In this document: piece by piece, positions 7,025 to 55,126 of the stretch | Layout: each line of letters starts with the position of its first letter | How positions within the stretch are numbered: the first letter of the stretch is position 1 | NCBI GenBank assembly: GCA_011911785.1 | Contig: GCA_011911785.1_4084.1 | Source: a phage | DNA length: 64,000 nt | Strand: one strand, 5' to 3' | Notes under the pieces: generated by a model | Seen by the model: the letters and a program-made list of their open reading frames with translations, nothing else | Databases searched by the model: none | What the model was told of the DNA's origin: nothing | Program-made: the position numbers and the translations under genes

Positions 7025-7118
7025 TAAAAAATCAATTAGCTCAAGTCAATTAAATCCACCAATAAATAAGACTATACGAAATATATTCGAATAACCAATT
7101 ATTTTTGGAGGATTTAAT

Positions 7119-10861: not shown

Positions 10862-10877
10862 TTAAAGATACTTCTAA

Positions 10878-10907
10878 AGCCTCGAAACTATTTCGGGGCT
10901 TTTTTTA
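10878..10907 (+). terminator. Rho-independent terminator between the tube paralogs
   Basis: Hairpin agcctcgaaa/tttcggggct followed by T6. Confidence 0.6.
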
Positions 10908-10948
10908 TGCTAAATAAAGTATAATACCTTAAATTAAAAGAGGTTGCT

Positions 10949-17410: not shown

Positions 17411-17812
17411 ATGTCATACAACTATCGTGAACTAGTGGAATCACTAGATGCGATTATGGCAGAAGAAGAAGTTCCTCAAGAAGAAAATGGTATCGTTGTC
17501 CAAGAAGATTCGGACAACGTTATCGTTGATTTACTAAAGGAAATCACTACATCTTTAGTTGCTTTAGTTGATAAAGCAAAAGAAGAAGGTTCTGACCATA
17601 AAGAAATCGCAGAAAAACTTAAAAAAGCATGTGACATTTTGGCAGATGTGGAATATAATGATGACTTAGAAGCAAAAGACAGTACTAAAGAAATTGAAGA
17701 AGATTTCGGTACTGAAGATATGGCTCCTAAAGTTGACAGTGAAGGTCATCGTAGCTATAAAGTTAAAGATGCTCCTTCTTATGCTGCCAGACAAGGTTTT
17801 GTGGGGATGTAA
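17411..17812 (+). CDS. Acidic protein (133 aa)
   Basis: ORF track; start coupled to upstream stop. Confidence 0.5.
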   Translation: MSYNYRELVESLDAIMAEEEVPQEENGIVVQEDSDNVIVDLLKEITTSLVALVDKAKEEGSDHKEIAEKLKKACDILADVEYNDDLEAKDSTKEIEEDFGTEDMAPKVDSEGHRSYKVKDAPSYAARQGFVGM

Positions 17813-17814
17813 TT

Positions 17815-18159
17815 ATGATACCACAACCCACTAACAGCACTGAATTTCAAAATGAAGTACTTATAAAAGTTAAAGAAGTACATGAATCGGACGCTGAAAT
17901 CACTGACAGAATGCTTCTGATGTCTATTTTTGAAAACTTCAGAACTGGTGGTGGTTTGAGGCTTAGTAAGTATGGATTTATGATTTGTGAAGAAAATAAT
18001 CTTTATGAATTTACAAAAATCCCCTTGCTAAGAGAGTTCAAAAGCTCTATAATATTTACATCGCTTGATAGAATATGTAGAAGTCCTTATTATGTTGATG
18101 GCTACTACATATATCTCTCCGATGCAATGGTAGTTACTGAATTAACATTGTGTCGGTGA
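17815..18159 (+). CDS. Hypothetical protein (114 aa)
   Basis: ORF track. Confidence 0.5.
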   Translation: MIPQPTNSTEFQNEVLIKVKEVHESDAEITDRMLLMSIFENFRTGGGLRLSKYGFMICEENNLYEFTKIPLLREFKSSIIFTSLDRICRSPYYVDGYYIYLSDAMVVTELTLCR

Positions 18160-18223
18160 TGATTTCAAGCAGTTATTTTCGATGCATATGTAGAACGCTT
18201 CGAAAATAAAAATGAAAAAGATG

Positions 18224-18251
18224 TTGACAGTACAGATTAACGTGATATAAT
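18224..18251 (+). promoter_or_regulatory. Sigma70-like promoter P1 (TTGACA - 16 nt - TGaTATAAT)
   Basis: ttgaca 18224-18229, extended -10 tgatataat ending 18251. Confidence 0.6.
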
Positions 18252-18316
18252 GAACGTCACGAAGCAAGATTTCAAAATCACAAGATGTGAGATTGAAAAA
18301 GAAAGAAAAAAAGTTG

Positions 18317-18344
18317 TTGACAAGCCTGAACGATGTGATATAAT
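18317..18344 (+). promoter_or_regulatory. Sigma70-like promoter P2 (TTGACA - 16 nt - TGaTATAAT)
   Basis: ttgaca 18317-18322, tataat 18339-18344; near duplicate of P1 93 bp downstream. Confidence 0.6.
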
Positions 18345-18511
18345 GACCACATCAAGACGGCAAACAAGATTGACCTTTTTAAACACACGGATGATTCACT
18401 GAAGATAAGGAACTGATAAGTTAAAATACTTTTAACACAGTTCCTTTACTTTTGCCAACGGATTGGTTATAATATAAACCTAGTTTTTTATCCAACAAAA
18501 GGAAAATACAC

Positions 18512-19837
18512 ATGAGCGAACAACAAGATATCCTGAACGTAAAACTGACTCCTAAGAAAGCAAAAATGGCTATGGCTCTGGCAGATAAAATTCAGGATAG
18601 TCTGATGATTTGGGGTAGCCCTGGTATCGGTAAGTCTGCGATTGCACGTCAATACGCTGACGAGAACTATCCTCTTCGTAAGGATAACTTGGCTAAAATC
18701 GAGTTCATGAAACAACAAATTGAAGTTGATACTGAAAATGCTGATGCACTTCGCCGCGAACTGGCAGCGTTTGAAGCAAAACTGATTGACCAAGACACTA
18801 ACTTCATCGACTTCCGTTTGTCACAGATTGAACCAAGTGACCTACGTGGTATCCCAGTCCCTGAAAAAGTGTTCCTGGATATGGATGGCAAACAACTGAT
18901 TGAATCTGAACTGGAAACAGCTAAAGATTACATTGCTGAAACAGCAGTTGTATGGGCAGCACCTAAAGTACTGAAACTGTCTCCAGATTGGAAAGGTGTT
19001 ATCCTGTTTGACGAAATTAACTCTGCTATGCCGATTGTACAGGCAGCGTCTTATCAGCTAATCCTCGACCGTTGTGTTGGTGAGATGAAGCTACCTAAGA
19101 CTGCACTGATTCTCGCAGCAGGTAACCGTGAAACTGATGGCGGCGTAACGTTCTCTCTGGCAACGCCACTACGTGACCGTATGACCCACATCGAAATGGT
19201 TCCTTACCATCAAGATTGGATTGACGATTACGCGATTGCTAAGCGTTTGAACCCAGGTACTGTTGCGTTCATCAACAACACTGGTGCTAAGTACTTCAAC
19301 ACCCTTAGCCCACAAGATCCTTCTCACAGTGGTGGTACTTCTCCACGTTCATGGGAAGCAGTAGCACGCTACGAAGACCTGAAGAAAGGCAACAACATTG
19401 ATAAAGAAGTGTTCCGTGCTCTAATCGCTGGTCGTGTTGGTGAAGGTGTAGCAACTGAATATATCGAATACGTAGAAAACGTATCTAAACTACCAGATAC
19501 TATGTCCATCCTACAGGGTGAGATTAAAGAGATTGATGCAACGCTGGATATTTCTGCGAACTACTTCATCTCTCTGAATCTGGTTTATAAAATTATCGAC
19601 CTGTACAATGAGAAGCAAGAACAACGTCTTCCAGTTGAAGAGTGGGGCAAGCTGTGCAACAACTTCATCACCTTCCTGGACCGTAACTTCTCCGAAACTC
19701 AGGCAGAACTGGCAGTACTAGCAATTCGTACCATCACTCAACATAAGGTAGCGATTGCGTACAAAGATGTTCCAGCGTTCAAAGACTTCGTTATGAAGTA
19801 CTCTGACCTAGTACGCAAAGCACGTTCTCTTGGTTAA
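18512..19837 (+). CDS. MoxR-like AAA+ ATPase
   Basis: Walker A GSPGIGKS, Walker B ILFDEIN, single AAA module, 441 aa. Confidence 0.85.
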   Translation: MSEQQDILNVKLTPKKAKMAMALADKIQDSLMIWGSPGIGKSAIARQYADENYPLRKDNLAKIEFMKQQIEVDTENADALRRELAAFEAKLIDQDTNFIDFRLSQIEPSDLRGIPVPEKVFLDMDGKQLIESELETAKDYIAETAVVWAAPKVLKLSPDWKGVILFDEINSAMPIVQAASYQLILDRCVGEMKLPKTALILAAGNRETDGGVTFSLATPLRDRMTHIEMVPYHQDWIDDYAIAKRLNPGTVAFINNTGAKYFNTLSPQDPSHSGGTSPRSWEAVARYEDLKKGNNIDKEVFRALIAGRVGEGVATEYIEYVENVSKLPDTMSILQGEIKEIDATLDISANYFISLNLVYKIIDLYNEKQEQRLPVEEWGKLCNNFITFLDRNFSETQAELAVLAIRTITQHKVAIAYKDVPAFKDFVMKYSDLVRKARSLG

Positions 19838-19911
19838 TAACTAAAAGAATGTTTGACAAGAAGGATGCCACATGGTATCCTTCTTTTATCTTAACTAAAC
19901 GAGGAAATATC

Positions 19912-21315
19912 ATGTCCGATAAGAAATTTAGCGACGTAACACCACAACTCCAGAAAGAATGCCAAGACCGTTTGATTCTTGCTCGTACTTCTCTGATGTT
20001 AACTGCTCCATTCTTTGGTGTACTGGCTTCACGTCTGCGTCCAGTTGCAAACAATACATGGTGTCGTACCTTAGCAGTAGATGGTAAACATTTATTCTAT
20101 AACGTAGAATTTATCATGGGTATTCAAGACCCAAGCAAGAAAGAAGCATACGAAGAAGCAATTCGTGAGAAGCATCCTGAAGTAACTGAAGAACAATTGA
20201 AAGAAATGACCGAAGGTTTGACTGATGAAAACCTGATTGCAGTTATCTGTCATGAAATTCTTCACTGTGCATACGATCACTTCCTTCGTCGTGGTATGCG
20301 TGACCCACAACGCTACAACCGTGCAGCAGACTACGCAATCAACCAAATTATTGTTCGTGAAAAAATTGGTAAGATTCAAAGTCAATGGTTGTATGATAAG
20401 AAGTATGATGGTATGACCGCCGAAGAGATTTATATTCTTCTAGAAGAAGAAGATAAACAAGATCAAGATGAAGGTGAAGGACAACCACAATCTGGTAGTG
20501 GTGAAGGTGAAGGTAAATCACGCGGTACTTTTGGTGATATCCAAAATGGTAAAGGCAAAGGCACTACCATTGACCAACACGATGTACCACAAGATGGTGA
20601 AGGTGGTGCATCTGAAGCACAAAAACGTGAATACATGGACGATTTCAAAACAGCAATGATGAATGCTGCTCGTGCAGGTGGTACTCCTGCTGAAATCGCT
20701 CGTATGATCAATAACTTTAAAGAACCAAAAATTGACTGGCGTTCTAAACTTCAACGTACTCTTCGTAGCTGGTTGAAGTCCGATGCGACCTATCAAAGCC
20801 CAAGCCGCCGTTCGTGGGGTGCTGGTTTTGGTTCTAACGGTTCATTCTACGGGAATCCAATCTTCCCAGGTATGAAACCAGATGACGATATTGATATTGC
20901 AATTGCACTCGATGCATCAGGCTCTATCAGTGAAGATATGCTTCGTGATTTCATCAGTGAAGTACTAGGCATCACTAAACAATTCAAGCAGTTTAAAATT
21001 CGTATCATGACATTTGATACTGAAGTTTATACTGTGATGGATTATAAAACTGGTGAAGAACGTAAGATTCTTGAATATCCAGTTAAAGGTGGTGGCGGTA
21101 CTGACTTTGAAGCAGTTTGGGTTCACATGAAGCATGACAATTATAAGCCTAAACAGCTTATCATGTTTACCGATGGTGAACCGTGGCAGTCATGGGGTGA
21201 TCCTAACTACTGTAAAACACTGTTTGTGATTCACAGTAACCCGAACAAAGTAGCACCATTTGGTGAAACTGTTCACTACGAATATGAAGCGGACAAAAAA
21301 CGCCAACGTTCGTAA
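19912..21315 (+). CDS. VWA-domain protein with N-terminal HExxH (DUF2201-type putative metallopeptidase) domain
   Basis: HEILHCAYDH motif; MIDAS motif DASGSIS; ORF track 19849..21315, ATG 19912 after GAGGA. Confidence 0.8.
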   Translation: MSDKKFSDVTPQLQKECQDRLILARTSLMLTAPFFGVLASRLRPVANNTWCRTLAVDGKHLFYNVEFIMGIQDPSKKEAYEEAIREKHPEVTEEQLKEMTEGLTDENLIAVICHEILHCAYDHFLRRGMRDPQRYNRAADYAINQIIVREKIGKIQSQWLYDKKYDGMTAEEIYILLEEEDKQDQDEGEGQPQSGSGEGEGKSRGTFGDIQNGKGKGTTIDQHDVPQDGEGGASEAQKREYMDDFKTAMMNAARAGGTPAEIARMINNFKEPKIDWRSKLQRTLRSWLKSDATYQSPSRRSWGAGFGSNGSFYGNPIFPGMKPDDDIDIAIALDASGSISEDMLRDFISEVLGITKQFKQFKIRIMTFDTEVYTVMDYKTGEERKILEYPVKGGGGTDFEAVWVHMKHDNYKPKQLIMFTDGEPWQSWGDPNYCKTLFVIHSNPNKVAPFGETVHYEYEADKKRQRS

Positions 21316-21325
21316 AAATAAATAT

Positions 21326-21355
21326 AGAGAACGATTCGTCGTTCTCTTTTATTTT
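21326..21355 (+). terminator. Rho-independent terminator
   Basis: Perfect 9-bp stem agagaacga/tcgttctct, loop ttcg, followed by tttatttt. Confidence 0.75.
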
Positions 21356-26134: not shown

Positions 26135-26215
26135 TATTGACTATCCTCATACAATTATATCAAGTATTTATTTTAAGAAAAAGAAAAGGCCAACCATAGT
26201 TGACCTTAGTGTTTA

Positions 26216-32613: not shown

Positions 32614-32687
32614 TCATTTCCCTCCATTTGGGTAAAATTAAAATACTTATTAACTGTGTTAATATGTAATTATTTATTTGTATATAT

Positions 32688-32720
32688 GAAAAAGCCAGGC
32701 ACTAAGACATCATACCTGGC
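32688..32720 (-). terminator. Candidate terminator on minus strand
   Basis: Stem gccagg/cctggc at 32695-32720 with long loop, U-run on minus strand. Confidence 0.4.
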
Positions 32721-32727
32721 ATAAATC

Positions 32728-36960: not shown

Positions 36961-37069
36961 AATTATTCCCTTTATGAATTGTTATCATATAGGAATATTT
37001 ATCTGTTCAATGCAGCAACGAAGACCAATAATAAATAAATGAAAGTTCACTACACAAAAGGGCTTAACA

Positions 37070-55075: not shown

Positions 55076-55091
55076 TTGATTTATTTATGCT

Positions 55092-55117
55092 ATAAAAAAG
55101 GCGACCCGAAGGCCGCC
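55092..55117 (-). terminator. Minus-strand terminator with UUCG tetraloop
   Basis: On minus strand ggcggcc-uucg-ggucgcc followed by UUUUUUA. Confidence 0.6.
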
Positions 55118-55126
55118 ACGATTTTA

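What the first reader, a model, noticed from the sequence alone, without database searches (positions are those of the whole stretch)
18345..18511. Structured leader between the twin promoters and the MoxR start
The region between P2 and the MoxR ATG has no plausible coding ORF and contains a 9-bp-stem hairpin (aaggaactg at 18407-18415 pairing cagttcctt at 18438-18446, 22-nt loop) followed by a T-rich tract. A second hairpin (tattttcga/tcgaaaata, 18174-18208) sits just after the upstream gene. This could be an attenuator, an RNase processing site, or a small regulatory RNA transcribed from P1/P2.
Basis: seen in the sequence. Interest (0 to 1): 0.4.

Follow-up and report, generated by a model that had tools for sequence, protein, structure and literature searches.

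The report
Conserved leaky terminator in phage leader
The hairpin is real and is the core of a non-coding leader, kept in every RaK2-like jumbo phage examined, that places a terminator-type stem-loop and a small GGA-loop hairpin between strong promoters and an ATPase gene; it is most likely an ordinary kind of transcription attenuator or short-RNA unit and not a new kind of system.

Summary
The window is an Escherichia phage A4-like Asteriusvirus (RaK2-like jumbo phage). The reported 9-bp hairpin (18407-18415 / 18438-18446), its T-rich tail and the two perfect sigma70 promoters are all present as described. One such hairpin is not beyond chance, but 20 distinct leaders from six or more genera keep it with compensatory changes (92% of cells paired, 7 pairs changed on both sides). 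A covariance model built without any Asteriusvirus sequence finds it at 44 bits. Its tail matches the phage's gene-end terminators, and two published annotations already call it a terminator. In this clade it is a long two-tier hairpin with an interrupted U tract and scores as weak. A second, unreported hairpin follows directly (18454-18467). Its arms covary and its GGA loop never varies. An A(N)GGA motif sits just upstream of the main hairpin. The order promoter, terminator, gene is conserved here, whereas elsewhere the order is terminator, promoter, gene. Best reading: a promoter-proximal leaky terminator producing RNAs of about 103 and 195 nt plus read-through mRNA, possibly modulated by a GGA-binding protein such as CsrA. 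The upstream hairpin (18173-18209) is not conserved beyond the neutral level. No transcript data exist. Interest is modest.

The parts
18173..18209 (+). Upstream 10-bp A/T-rich hairpin (TTATTTTCGA / TCGAAAATAA, 17-nt loop). Present, but probably incidental.
   Evidence: Only 0.33 of columns in 18160-18223 are invariant among six Asteriusvirus lineages, against 0.41-0.42 for third codon positions. The 5' arm is codons L-F-S-M of the ancestral ORF, whose stop lies at 18190-18192 once the extra C at 18154 is removed. There is no U tail.
18224..18251 (+). Promoter P1: TTGACA, 16-nt spacer, TATAAT, with TGn extended -10 and an A-rich UP-like tract. Predicted start about 18258-18259.
   Evidence: 12/12 match. 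Conserved in Asteriusvirus and RaK2.
18317..18344 (+). Promoter P2, a diverged tandem copy of the P1 unit. Predicted start about 18351. The transcript begins (A)UCAAGAC, the generic 5' motif of this phage's early transcripts.
   Evidence: 12/12 match. 0.79 of columns invariant in Asteriusvirus. The ACATCAAGG motif follows most early promoters at the left end of the A4 genome. SP27 carries a third copy through a 95-nt duplication.
18385..18394 (+). Site 1: ACACGGATGA, an A(N)GGA motif 15 nt upstream of the base of HP1.
   Evidence: An A(N)GGA lies 6-17 nt upstream of HP1 in 20 of 21 distinct leaders. 0.93 invariant in Asteriusvirus. 9 of 12 positions match the CsrA SELEX consensus RUACARGGAUGU, including ACA and GGA (consensus from PMC7652899).
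18407..18446 (+). HP1: two-tier stem-loop. Lower stem AAGGAACUG/CAGUUCCUU, internal loop, upper stem GUUAAAA/UUUUAAC, loop UAC. This is the hairpin of the finding.
   Evidence: Compensatory variants are GGAACUG/CAGUUCC, GGACUG/CAGUCC, GGCACUG/CAGUGCC, GACACUG/CAGUGUC, GCACUGA/UCAGUGC and GCACUGG/CCAGUGC. 94.5% of cells are paired and 4 pairs change on both sides. Annotated as a terminator in G17 and as Torf215 in CBB.
18447..18453 (+). U-rich tail (UACUUUU; with the last stem bases it reads CCUUUACUUUUG). Expected 3' ends lie at about 18452-18455.
   Evidence: Invariant in Asteriusvirus. It belongs to the same tail family as the window's gene-end terminators, CCTTTTCTTTTG. The interrupted tract and long hairpin give a d-score of -30, against +4 to +39 for 11 gene-end terminators.
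18454..18467 (+). HP2: GCCAA-CGGA-UUGGU, a 4-6 bp hairpin with an invariant GGA in the loop. New relative to the finding.
   Evidence: The GGA lies 12-14 nt after the base of HP1 in 21 of 21 leaders. The arms covary: GCCAA/TTGGT, GCTTA/TGAGC, TGCTTA/TAAGCG, GCAAA/TTTGT, TCAGA/TCTGA, GCTT/AAGC. 3 of 5 pairs change on both sides. G-U wobbles fit only the + strand RNA.
18445..18473 (+). Candidate weak promoter P3 (TTTACT, 17-nt spacer, TATAAT). It would start about 18480 and give a leader of about 30 nt without HP1 or HP2.
   Evidence: 10/12 match. The -10 is invariant in six Asteriusvirus lineages. It is TGGTATAAT in JNE01 and Hallingskeid, and TTGACT-N17-TAAACT in EJP2. No comparable -10 is seen in the CBB and Eneladusvirus clades.
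18499..18514 (+). Shine-Dalgarno AAGGAA (18499-18504) and the ATG (18512-18514) of the AAA+ ATPase gene (18512-19837, N4 gp24 / MoxR-like).
   Evidence: Pfam gives only weak AAA and AAA_3 hits.
19858..19885 (+). T2: terminator-type hairpin between the ATPase gene and the VWA/DUF2201 gene (19912-21315).
   Evidence: A hairpin with a T tract sits at the same place in all ten genomes compared. In CBB and pEa50 there is no room for a promoter before the VWA Shine-Dalgarno. Annotated as a terminator in Munch and Muenster and as Torf216 in CBB.
21326..21347 (+). T3: terminator that closes the ATPase-VWA unit. It is followed by a GGGACA-N17-TATAAT promoter, which is the usual order terminator then promoter.

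Best explanation
The hairpin (HP1) is the centre of a conserved non-coding leader cassette. The cassette precedes the AAA+ ATPase (N4 gp24 / MoxR-like) and VWA/DUF2201 (gp25-like) gene pair in every RaK2-like jumbo phage examined.

The order of parts is: host-sigma70-type promoter(s), a short 5' segment with an A(N)GGA motif, a stem-loop of intrinsic-terminator type with a U-rich tail (HP1), a 4-6 bp hairpin with an invariant GGA loop (HP2), then the Shine-Dalgarno sequence and ATG.

Proposed mechanism, which is inferred and not shown. HP1 acts as a promoter-proximal, leaky Rho-independent terminator, that is, an attenuator. It stops late transcripts arriving from the upstream structural genes. 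It also cuts most P1 and P2 transcripts to RNAs of about 195 and about 103 nt ending near 18452-18455. Polymerases that read through make the ATPase-VWA mRNA, which then carries HP2. In Asteriusvirus a weak third promoter (P3) may add to this. A second leaky terminator (T2) sets the level of VWA in the same way.

The two GGA motifs that flank the base of HP1 probably bind a protein that tunes mRNA fate. Host CsrA is the obvious candidate.
For: What is shown:

- HP1 and HP2 are conserved RNA structures. In 20 distinct leaders 92.0% of cells are paired, against 81.4% in shuffles (0 of 500 reach it) and 18-50% when partners are slid. Seven pairs change on both sides (for the 14 non-Asteriusvirus sequences).
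- A covariance model built only from other genera finds window 18401-18472 at 44.1 bits, E about 1e-7. The next-best hits in the window score 21 bits or less and are ordinary gene-end terminators.
- The tail of HP1 belongs to the phage's own terminator-tail family.
- ARNOLD-based annotations call the same hairpin a terminator in G17 and in CBB (Torf215; PMC5259590 supplement).
- An extended -10 promoter lies between the upstream stop codon and HP1 in all genera. The fHe-Yen9-03 record annotates it independently.
- Elsewhere in the window the order is terminator, promoter, gene.
- Of 46 strong promoter matches in 114 kb of this phage, only P2 has a stable hairpin with a T tract within 170 nt.
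- Within Asteriusvirus, the stretch from site 1 to the P3 -10 is 0.71-1.00 invariant, against 0.41-0.42 for third codon positions.

Reasons to infer read-through:

- HP2 covaries as + strand RNA although it lies 3' of the terminator.
- The CBB and Eneladusvirus clades have no P3-like -10.
- VWA sits directly behind T2 with no room for a promoter in those clades.
- In this clade HP1 scores as weak, d = -30 against +4 to +39 for 11 gene-end terminators.

Precedent. 5'-UTR premature-termination RNAs are reported in giant phages (PMC11512511). The PR'-tR' unit of Stx phages yields the short RNA StxS (PMC7547250).
Against: - There are no transcript data for any RaK2-like phage: no TSS, 3'-end or Northern data were found.
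- No alternative antiterminator pairing was found, and no antitermination factor is known, so 'regulated' read-through is conjecture.
- The d-score is my own re-implementation of the d'Aubenton-Carafa formula from memory. It says HP1 of this very phage is below the terminator threshold, so HP1 may terminate little.
- In EJP2 the terminator and the rest of the leader are separated by about 190 nt and a second promoter. The parts can therefore work apart.
- The simplest reading remains possible: HP1 only ends the upstream operon.
Confidence: 0.55

Rival explanations
1. Plain gene-end terminator. HP1 only terminates the upstream late structural operon, as the CBB authors labelled it. The position of the promoter upstream of it is incidental, and the ATPase gene is transcribed from P3.
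For: The CBB supplement lists it as Torf215, the terminator of the upstream ORF. There is no other terminator between the upstream gene and the ATPase gene. The P3 -10 TATAAT is invariant in Asteriusvirus. EJP2 has a full promoter after the terminator.
Against: A promoter sits between the stop codon and HP1 in every genus, including EJP2. Site 1 lies between that promoter and HP1 and is conserved in 20 of 21 leaders. HP2 covaries as RNA but would lie outside a P3 transcript. The CBB and Eneladusvirus clades lack a P3-like -10. Other loci in the window use the order terminator then promoter.
Confidence: 0.2
2. Stand-alone small regulatory RNA gene. P1/P2 plus HP1 make an abundant trans-acting sRNA of about 103 or 195 nt in this phage and about 55-70 nt in other genera. 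It would have a single-stranded 5' part and a terminator hairpin. Control of the ATPase gene would be secondary.
For: The anatomy is a strong promoter plus a terminator, which is what an sRNA gene looks like. The segment between the start site and HP1 is conserved around site 1. In EJP2, P1-HP1 forms a separate short unit. Premature-termination sRNAs are reported in other giant phages and in Stx phages.
Against: Apart from A(N)GGA, the 5' segment is poorly conserved between genera and varies from about 25 to about 100 nt. Its 5' motif is the generic early-transcript motif of the phage. The EJP2 short unit lacks site 1. The U tail is interrupted, which is poor for Hfq (inference from general knowledge of Hfq-dependent sRNAs). 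No target was sought or found. There is no Rfam match.
Confidence: 0.15
3. Leader controlled by a GGA-binding protein, with host CsrA/RsmA as the candidate. A dimer would bind the A(N)GGA upstream of HP1, the GGA loop of HP2 and, in some clades, the GGA-containing Shine-Dalgarno. This would set translation or stability of the ATPase mRNA according to host Csr status. This reading is compatible with the best explanation.
For: HP2 has the architecture of a CsrA site: GGA in the loop of a short hairpin of up to 4-6 bp (criteria from PMC7652899). The GGA is invariant in 21 of 21 leaders and in EJP2 at a fixed 12-14 nt from HP1. Site 1 in this phage, ACACGGAUGA, contains ACA, GGA and UG of the SELEX consensus. 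The two sites flank the base of HP1 at 6-17 nt and 12-14 nt, so they would be close together once HP1 folds (the proximity is inference). The named hosts of these phages (Enterobacterales and Xanthomonas) have CsrA/RsmA, from general knowledge.
Against: HP2 lacks the ACA and GU flanks of the consensus. Site 1 is A(N)GGA only and is absent in one lineage. The Shine-Dalgarno has no GGA in the CBB and Eneladusvirus clades. There are only 2-4 GGA per leader. No binding data exist. GGA could equally be read by a phage protein.
Confidence: 0.2
4. RNA processing and stabiliser module. An RNase (E/G in the U-rich linker, or RNase III in the two-tier stem) cuts at or next to HP1. That would leave HP1 as a 3' protective hairpin for upstream RNA and HP2 as a 5' protective hairpin for the ATPase mRNA.
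For: An A/U-rich single-stranded linker lies between two hairpins. In this clade HP1 is a 16-bp interrupted helix resembling T7 RNase III sites (resemblance from memory). Early mRNAs of this phage carry 5'-proximal hairpins.
Against: In half of the clades HP1 is an 8-12 bp tetraloop hairpin, which is too short for RNase III. The model does not explain the invariant GGA loop. It is not testable in silico.
Confidence: 0.1
5. Chance inverted repeat with no function.
For: About ten 9-bp hairpin hits are expected by chance in a window of this composition.
Against: Conservation with compensatory changes across six or more genera, detection by an independent model, and near-invariance within Asteriusvirus.
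Confidence: 0.01

Closest known systems
Lambdoid PR'-tR' unit (lambda 6S RNA; StxS of Stx phages; PMC7547250)
   Same: An active promoter is followed within about 100-200 nt by an intrinsic terminator, upstream of the genes it serves. This produces a short RNA as a by-product, and read-through is needed for downstream expression.
   Different: No Q-type antiterminator, Q-binding element or promoter-proximal pause signal was identified, and none was searched for at the protein level. The downstream genes are an ATPase-VWA pair, not the late operon. HP1 also serves as the end of an upstream operon. There is an additional GGA-loop hairpin.
5'-UTR premature-termination small RNAs of giant phages (201phi2-1, phiKZ; PMC11512511)
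   Same: In those jumbo phages a transcription termination site lies immediately downstream of a start site in a 5' UTR. At least one such element is conserved by position and structure among related phages.
   Different: Those were found experimentally in Pseudomonas phages that use their own RNA polymerases. This one is only predicted, uses host sigma70-type promoters, and has no sequence relation to them.
CsrA/RsmA-regulated mRNA leaders (glgC, pgaA, flhDC; review PMC7652899)
   Same: There are two or more A(N)GGA motifs, one in the loop of a short hairpin, spaced within reach of one dimer. In Asteriusvirus a further GGA lies in the Shine-Dalgarno sequence.
   Different: Binding is untested. 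HP2 lacks the ACA...GU flanks. The sites flank a terminator hairpin instead of mainly covering the ribosome-binding site. No phage leader of this kind is known to me as a CsrA target.
Ordinary Rho-independent terminators of the same phage (for example window 3807+, 39300-, 45040-, 58660-)
   Same: A stem that begins AA(A)GG or AAAGC and a tail CC-TTTTCTTTTG. The published CBB and G17 annotations treat HP1 as one of these.
   Different: HP1 lies downstream of a promoter, not upstream. In this clade it has a 22-nt structured loop and an A/C-interrupted U tract and scores far lower. It is followed by HP2.

Membership tests
Intrinsic (Rho-independent) terminator | Stable G+C-containing stem-loop | tested here: met
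   9-bp lower stem with 4 G-C pairs plus a 7-bp upper stem. The G+C core hairpin (18409-18444) folds at -10.4 kcal/mol. Covariation supports the stem.
Intrinsic (Rho-independent) terminator | Uninterrupted U-rich tract immediately 3' of the stem | tested here: inconclusive
   The tail after the G+C core is UUUACUUUU (7 of 9 are U, interrupted by A and C). The CBB clade has UUUUCUUUUU.
Intrinsic (Rho-independent) terminator | Combined hairpin and tail score above the terminator threshold | tested here: not met
   The d-score (my re-implementation) is -30 for this phage, against +4 to +39 for 11 gene-end terminators of the window. It is met (+4 to +17) in the CBB clade. ARNOLD nevertheless calls it a terminator in G17 and CBB.
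Intrinsic (Rho-independent) terminator | RNA 3' ends at the tract in vivo or in vitro | not testable with these tools
   No transcript data were found.
Promoter-proximal attenuator / 5'-UTR premature-termination RNA | Promoter within about 200 nt upstream of the terminator, both upstream of the ORF and on the same strand | tested here: met
   From the end of the -10 to HP1 is 62 nt (P2) and 155 nt (P1) here, and 29-36 nt in other genera. This holds in all genera.
Promoter-proximal attenuator / 5'-UTR premature-termination RNA | Alternative (antiterminator) structure, leader peptide, ligand aptamer or antiterminator protein that makes read-through conditional | tested here: not met
   There is no conserved leader ORF. 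No conserved competing helix was seen in the leader folds inspected. Pairing of the 5' end with the tail does not co-evolve (p = 0.09). There is no Rfam riboswitch or leader hit. Protein factors were not searched for.
CsrA/RsmA binding leader | Two or more GGA motifs, at least one in the loop of a short hairpin | tested here: met
   The HP2 loop is (C/U)GGA in 21 of 21 leaders. Site 1 A(N)GGA is present in 20 of 21.
CsrA/RsmA binding leader | Match to the high-affinity consensus RUACARGGAUGU | tested here: inconclusive
   Site 1 of this phage matches 9 of 12 positions, with ACA and GGA present. HP2 and the site 1 of other genera match only GGA and the preceding A(N).
CsrA/RsmA binding leader | A site overlapping the Shine-Dalgarno sequence or start codon | tested here: inconclusive
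   The Shine-Dalgarno is AAGGAA or GAGGAA in the Asteriusvirus, RaK2, Munch and Hallingskeid clades. It is AGGU or GAAGA in the CBB and Eneladusvirus clades.
CsrA/RsmA binding leader | Specific binding and CsrA-dependent expression | not testable with these tools
   Needs EMSA, CLIP or reporter assays.
RNase III processing hairpin (T7 R1.1 type) | Interrupted double helix of about 20 bp, conserved in the family | tested here: not met
   16 bp in two tiers here, but only an 8-12 bp tetraloop hairpin in the CBB and Eneladusvirus clades.
Lambda-type nut site (boxA + boxB) | boxA CGCUCUUUA followed by a hairpin with a GNRA-like pentaloop | tested here: not met
   The tail is UACUUUUGCC here. CUCUUUU in some genera is simply the phage's general terminator tail. 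The HP2 loop is YGGA. The nut consensus is from memory.
Any Rfam family | Covariance-model match | tested here: not met
   Best hits in 17900-18800 are 23 bits or less, all far below the gathering scores.

The most novel reading that the evidence does not exclude
The cassette would be a phage riboregulator wired to the host Csr/Rsm system. A CsrA dimer would clamp the two GGA motifs at the base of a leaky terminator hairpin and so couple expression of the conserved ATPase-VWA module to host physiological state. Alternatively, the abundant P1/P2 short RNA would act as a CsrA decoy. Either way it would have been kept across jumbo phages of Escherichia, Klebsiella, Salmonella, Erwinia, Pectobacterium, Yersinia and Xanthomonas.
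Probability: 0.12. Interest if true: 0.65.

Novelty: new member of a known kind. Interest (0 to 1): 0.35.

Why it matters
If confirmed, this would be a deeply conserved cis-regulatory RNA in RaK2-like jumbo phages, a group with no published transcriptome that I could find. It would show that the N4 gp24/gp25-like ATPase-VWA pair, whose function is unknown, is expressed through successive leaky terminators from promoters of the host-sigma70 type.

It also gives three practical things: a defined 72-nt element to mutate, two very strong natural promoters, and a testable link to a host RNA-binding protein.

For annotation, it corrects spurious 'hypothetical protein' calls and one over-extended ATPase start across this leader in several GenBank records.

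Tried and rejected
- Rfam scan of 17900-18800 at E up to 10: only noise.
- Leader peptide or small ORF: the 50-aa ORF starts in the P1 -10 and is not conserved. The mini-ORFs at ATGGAT are not conserved, because the motif is ACGGA or AAGGA elsewhere.
- Long-range helix between the transcript 5' end (AAGAGA / GGCAAA) and the U-rich tail: cognate duplexes are no better than non-cognate ones (-4.6 against -4.1 kcal/mol, permutation p = 0.09). Rejected as generic purine/pyrimidine complementarity.
- Pairing of site 1 GGAUGA with UAUCC before the Shine-Dalgarno: seen in Asteriusvirus folds only, not in other genera.
- The 5' motif CAUCAAGAC as a specific signal: it is the generic initial transcribed motif of the phage's early promoters.
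- nut-like boxA/boxB reading: the tail is the general terminator tail of the phage and the loop is not boxB-like.
- Replication origin with twin promoters: the cumulative GC skew turns at about 24 kb, where the gene strand switches, not at 18.3 kb.
- T4-type late promoter in the leader: TATAAATA is not enriched (2 matches against 8.2 expected). The late-type motif AATAAATA lies upstream of structural genes, not here.
- Extra copies of the cassette: one place per genome in 46 phage records, no match in E. coli genomes, and none in 114 kb of phage A4. A degenerate HP2-plus-tail pattern scan of viral contigs gave chance hits.
- Transcriptome literature for Asteriusvirus, RaK2-like phages, fHe-Yen9-04 and fEgEco12: nothing found.
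- MAFFT alignment of whole leaders misaligned the 5' arm between clades. I replaced it with a core alignment and a model-based alignment.
Full report
**Where the window comes from.** Bases 17800-19000 are 99.8% identical to Escherichia phage A4 (ON286972, Asteriusvirus). They are 81-87% identical to 34 other jumbo coliphage and Salmonella phage genomes of the 121Q/PBECO4 type. The finding lies in the 352-nt spacer between a small gene at the end of a block of virion structural genes (17815-18159) and an AAA+ ATPase gene (18512-19837). The ATPase gene is followed by a DUF2201/VWA gene (19912-21315). All are on the + strand. Pfam gives only weak AAA and AAA_3 hits for the ATPase, and DUF2201_N plus DUF2201 for its partner. 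GenBank records liken the pair to N4 gp24 and gp25. 'MoxR' is therefore a loose label.

**Checking the observation.**
- The 9-bp stem is AAGGAACTG 18407-18415 with CAGTTCCTT 18438-18446, across a 22-nt loop.
- The loop forms an inner 7-bp stem (GTTAAAA / TTTTAAC).
- The tail is TACTTTTG.
- The upstream hairpin is in fact 10 bp (18173-18182 / 18200-18209).
- P1 and P2 are the only two 12/12 matches to TTGACA-N16-TATAAT in the 64 kb. Both have a TGn extended -10 and an A-rich upstream tract.

The 167-nt leader folds better than all 200 shuffles (z = -2.73). However, perfect 9-bp hairpins with loops up to 25 nt are common in this A+T-rich DNA: 26 k-mer hits against 10.3 +/- 4.3 in shuffles. The hairpin alone would not be convincing, so the case rests on comparative data.

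**Comparative data.** I collected the region upstream of the ATPase gene from GenBank phages and IMG/VR contigs.
- GenBank phages: Turkey3, JNE01, 121Q, ph0011, UE-S1, G17, SP27, TH47, CMSTMSU, EJP2, RaK2, Muenster, Munch, fENko-Kae01, Hallingskeid, pEa_SNUABM_50, CBB, fHe-Yen9-03 and XbC2.
- ATPase identity to the window protein falls as low as 54% among these relatives.
- This gave 21 distinct leaders plus the rearranged EJP2 locus.

All of them share one plan:
- The stop codon of the upstream gene is followed by a promoter with an extended -10 (TGTGATATAAT, or TGTGGTATAAT / CTGGTATAAT).
- From the end of the -10 hexamer to the hairpin is 29-36 nt in most genera, 62-64 nt in Asteriusvirus and 110 nt in RaK2.
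- The hairpin has a 7-12 bp stem and a loop of 4-23 nt.
- It is followed by CTCTTTT, CTTTTTT or TACTTTT.

The stem changes in a compensatory way: GGAACTG/CAGTTCC (Asteriusvirus), GGACTG/CAGTCC (RaK2, one base pair deleted), GGCACTG/CAGTGCC (Munch, Eneladusvirus), GACACTG/CAGTGTC (one IMG/VR contig), GCACTGA/TCAGTGC (CBB clade) and GCACTGG/CCAGTGC.

Directly after the T tract there is a 4-6 bp stem with a loop (C/T)GGA(N). In the window it is GCCAA-CGGA-TTGGT, 18454-18467.
- Its arms differ between lineages but stay complementary: GCTTA/TGAGC, TGCTTA/TAAGCG, GCAAA/TTTGT, TCAGA/TCTGA, GCTT/AAGC and others.
- The GGA never changes.
- Some pairs are G-T, which fits pairing in + strand RNA and not in the opposite strand.

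**Pair counts and independent detection.**
- On the 14 non-Asteriusvirus sequences, 94.6% of cells are paired against 86.2% in column shuffles (0 of 500 reach it) and 17-46% when partners are slid. Six pairs change on both sides.
- A covariance model built from those 14 sequences only finds the window element at 18401-18472 with 44.1 bits, E about 1e-7.
- On the model-based alignment of 20 distinct sequences, 92.0% of cells are paired and 7 pairs change on both sides: 4 of 10 pairs in HP1 and 3 of 5 in HP2. That alignment is fitted to the model, so it leans towards the structure. The MAFFT-based count does not have this bias.

**Is HP1 a terminator?** The next-best model hits in the window (21 bits or less) are ordinary gene-end terminators. 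They share the same stem start and tail, AAAGG...CCTTTTCTTTTG. HP1 is therefore built like the phage's own terminators. Two published annotations already call it one: an ARNOLD 'putative transcriptional terminator' in G17, and 'Torf215, 124,614-124,647' in the supplement of the CBB paper (PMC5259590).

With my re-implementation of the d'Aubenton-Carafa score, HP1 scores as follows:
- +4 to +17 in the CBB clade;
- about 0 in Eneladusvirus;
- -3 to -30 in the Munch, Hallingskeid, RaK2 and Asteriusvirus clades (-30 in this window);
- for comparison, +4 to +39 for 11 gene-end terminators of the window.

In the low-scoring clades the hairpin has gained a covarying upper stem (GUUA/UAAC, GUUAAAA/UUUUAAC, AAGUU/AACUU, GAUU/AAUC, and UGAUUU/AAAUCA in EJP2) and the U tract is interrupted. 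In this phage HP1 is therefore at best a weak, leaky terminator.

**Why the arrangement is not just a gene end.**
- Elsewhere in the window the order is terminator, promoter, gene. Examples are 21326 followed by GGGACA-N17-TATAAT, and the spacers at 26135-26215 (minus strand) and 10862-10948. At this locus the promoter comes first in every genus, including EJP2.
- The first 50 kb of the A4 genome is the early region. It holds many perfect promoters of one family: an A-rich tract, TTGACA, a spacer ending AGTACTG, TATAAT, then ACATCAAGG, a G+C-rich hairpin, the Shine-Dalgarno sequence and a small ORF.
- That family explains the CATCAAGAC after P2 as a generic feature of early transcripts.
- Of 46 strong promoter matches in the 114 kb examined, only P2 has a stable hairpin with a T tract within 170 nt.
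- In the CBB clade the promoter fits the 'TGAAACG-N15-TATAAT' class that the CBB authors found near DNA-synthesis genes. The fHe-Yen9-03 record annotates its -35 and -10 independently.

**Why read-through must matter.**
- HP2 lies 3' of the terminator yet evolves as an RNA helix.
- The CBB and Eneladusvirus clades have no credible promoter between HP2 and the ATG.
- A second terminator-type hairpin sits between the ATPase and VWA genes in all ten genomes compared (window 19858-19885). In CBB and pEa50 it leaves no room for a promoter, so VWA can only be transcribed through it.
- The unit closes with a third terminator at 21326.

The most economical model is a chain of leaky terminators: promoter(s), HP1, ATPase, T2, VWA, T3. 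In Asteriusvirus a third promoter-like element may add transcripts that lack HP1 and HP2. It is TTTACT-N17-TATAAT at 18445-18473. Its -10 is invariant in six lineages, it reads TGGTATAAT in JNE01 and Hallingskeid, and TTGACT-N17-TAAACT in EJP2.

**Constraint within Asteriusvirus** (fraction of invariant columns among six lineages):
- third codon positions of the flanking genes: 0.41-0.42;
- site 1: 0.93;
- HP1 arms: 1.00;
- HP1 loop: 0.82;
- T tract: 1.00;
- HP2: 0.71;
- P3 -10: 1.00;
- the stretch holding the upstream hairpin (18160-18223): 0.33.

The upstream hairpin's 5' arm is ancestral coding sequence. Removing C18154 restores the conserved C-terminus ...LTLCGDDFKQLFSMHM, with a stop at 18190-18192. 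That hairpin is therefore real in the sequence, but there is no sign that it is selected as a structure.

**The GGA motifs.**
- An A(N)GGA lies 6-17 nt upstream of the base of HP1 in 20 of 21 leaders.
- The HP2 GGA lies 12-14 nt downstream of the base in all 21, and 40-63 nt before the ATG.
- In the window, site 1 reads ACACGGAUGA (18385-18394).

The review PMC7652899 gives the CsrA SELEX consensus RUACARGGAUGU. It describes the GGA as sitting in the loop of short hairpins and describes dual-site binding by one dimer. HP2 has that architecture, and site 1 of this phage matches 9 of 12 positions including ACA and GGA. This is a resemblance, not a demonstration:
- HP2 lacks the ACA and GU flanks.
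- The Shine-Dalgarno sequence contains GGA only in some clades.
- Nothing can be said about binding from sequence alone.

I keep it as a non-exclusive rival and as the most novel reading that the evidence does not exclude.

**EJP2 as a natural rearrangement**. Its order is: P1, the HP1 terminator, about 190 nt, a perfect P2, CATCAAGACG, AAAGGAC, HP2 (ACCAA-CGGATT-TTGGT), the Shine-Dalgarno sequence, then the ATPase gene. The terminator and the GGA-bearing leader can thus be separated. That argues that site 1 and HP2 act on the mRNA (translation or stability) and not on the termination decision itself. It also shows that a promoter directly upstream of the terminator is retained even in this rearranged locus.

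**What it is not.**
- There is no Rfam match and no conserved leader ORF.
- No co-evolving helix links the 5' end and the tail.
- There is no nut-like boxA/boxB and no T4-type late promoter.
- There is no GC-skew turn here.
- No second copy exists in any of 46 phage genomes or in E. coli genomes.
- No full cassette was found elsewhere in a sampled, incomplete pattern scan of viral contigs.

**Comparison with what is known.** The kind is known. Promoter-proximal terminators that give short RNAs and require read-through are classical in lambdoid phages (PR'-tR', StxS; PMC7547250). Termination sites immediately downstream of start sites in 5' UTRs were recently mapped in the giant phages 201phi2-1 and phiKZ (PMC11512511). 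The hairpin itself has already been annotated as a terminator in two relatives. Three things are new here:
- the promoter-terminator-gene order is conserved across the whole RaK2-like group;
- the terminator has been weakened and elaborated in the Escherichia/Klebsiella/Salmonella clade;
- it is flanked at fixed distances by an A(N)GGA motif and a covarying GGA-loop hairpin.

I file it as a new member of a known kind, with modest interest. No transcript data for any RaK2-like phage were found, so every functional step above is inference.

Noticed in passing
window 19858-19885: A terminator-type hairpin (AAGAAGGATGCCACATGGTATCCTTCTT + TTATC) lies between the ATPase and VWA genes. A hairpin with a T tract is at the same place in all ten genomes compared, with different sequences, and in CBB and pEa50 it leaves no room for a promoter. 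The mechanical ORF list starts VWA at 19849, inside this hairpin. The A4 record starts it at 19912.
   Followed up: partly
window 18154 (gene 17815-18159): Compared with relatives, the upstream gene has one extra C. This truncates it by 12 residues. Deleting the C restores the conserved C-terminus ...LTLCGDDFKQLFSMHM with a stop at 18190-18192. It is either a true frameshift or a sequencing error shared with ON286972.
   Followed up: yes
L036 (ON286972 1-50000), e.g. 15829, 16428, 16764, 17337, 18091, 18430, 18700, 22082, 23609: The early region carries a family of perfect sigma70 promoters with a stereotyped design: an A-rich tract, TTGACA, a spacer ending AGTACTG (AGTACT boxes recur nearby), TATAAT, a conserved initial transcribed ACATCAAGG, then a G+C-rich 5' hairpin before the Shine-Dalgarno sequence of a small ORF. 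The AGTACT box and the 5' hairpins look like shared regulatory or stability signals.
   Followed up: partly
L007 (SP27) about 1460-1560, aligned to window 18296-18390: SP27 has a tandem duplication of about 95 nt of the P2 unit, which gives three consecutive promoters upstream of the hairpin.
   Followed up: no
L015 (EJP2) 573-900: The locus is rearranged: P1, the HP1 terminator, about 190 nt with another hairpin (CATCTC...GAGATG), a perfect P2, and a leader with HP2 embedded in TTGACT-N17-TAAACT. The terminator is separated from the GGA-bearing leader.
   Followed up: partly
window intergenic regions, e.g. 7025-7118, 32614-32727(-), 36961-37069, 55076-55126(-): The motif AATAAATA / ATAAATA recurs upstream of structural genes. 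This matches the putative late-promoter motif ATAAATA reported for CBB and GAP32. Exact TATAAATA is not enriched.
   Followed up: partly
window 3807, 39300(-), 45040(-), 58660(-), 26200(-): Gene-end terminators share a stereotyped tail, CC-TTTTCTTTT(G), and an A-rich 5' flank. Several lie between convergent genes, where they could act in both directions.
   Followed up: no
GenBank records of relatives (e.g. SHEFM2K, JP4, SD-2_S15; L037 fHe-Yen9-03 g212): Several records call a 'hypothetical protein' across this non-coding leader. fHe-Yen9-03 starts the ATPase CDS 69 nt too early, at a GTG inside the 3' arm of the hairpin.
   Followed up: partly
window about 24000: The cumulative GC skew turns at about 24 kb, where the gene orientation switches from + to -. 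This reflects coding strand and gives no evidence for an origin at the finding.
   Followed up: no
window 18277-18289: A small inverted repeat, TCACA-AGA-TGTGA, lies in the P1 transcript between P1 and the A-rich tract of P2. It is conserved in Asteriusvirus (CACAAGATGTG in 121Q). Its role is unknown.
   Followed up: no
L067 2855-2924 (IMGVR_UViG_3300045988_075054): An unrelated viral contig has a terminator followed about 20 nt later by TTTTTGCCAAACGGATTTGAC, the same GGA-loop hairpin sequence. It scores 26 bits with the model and was picked up through a pattern that imposed the motif, so it may be chance.
   Followed up: no
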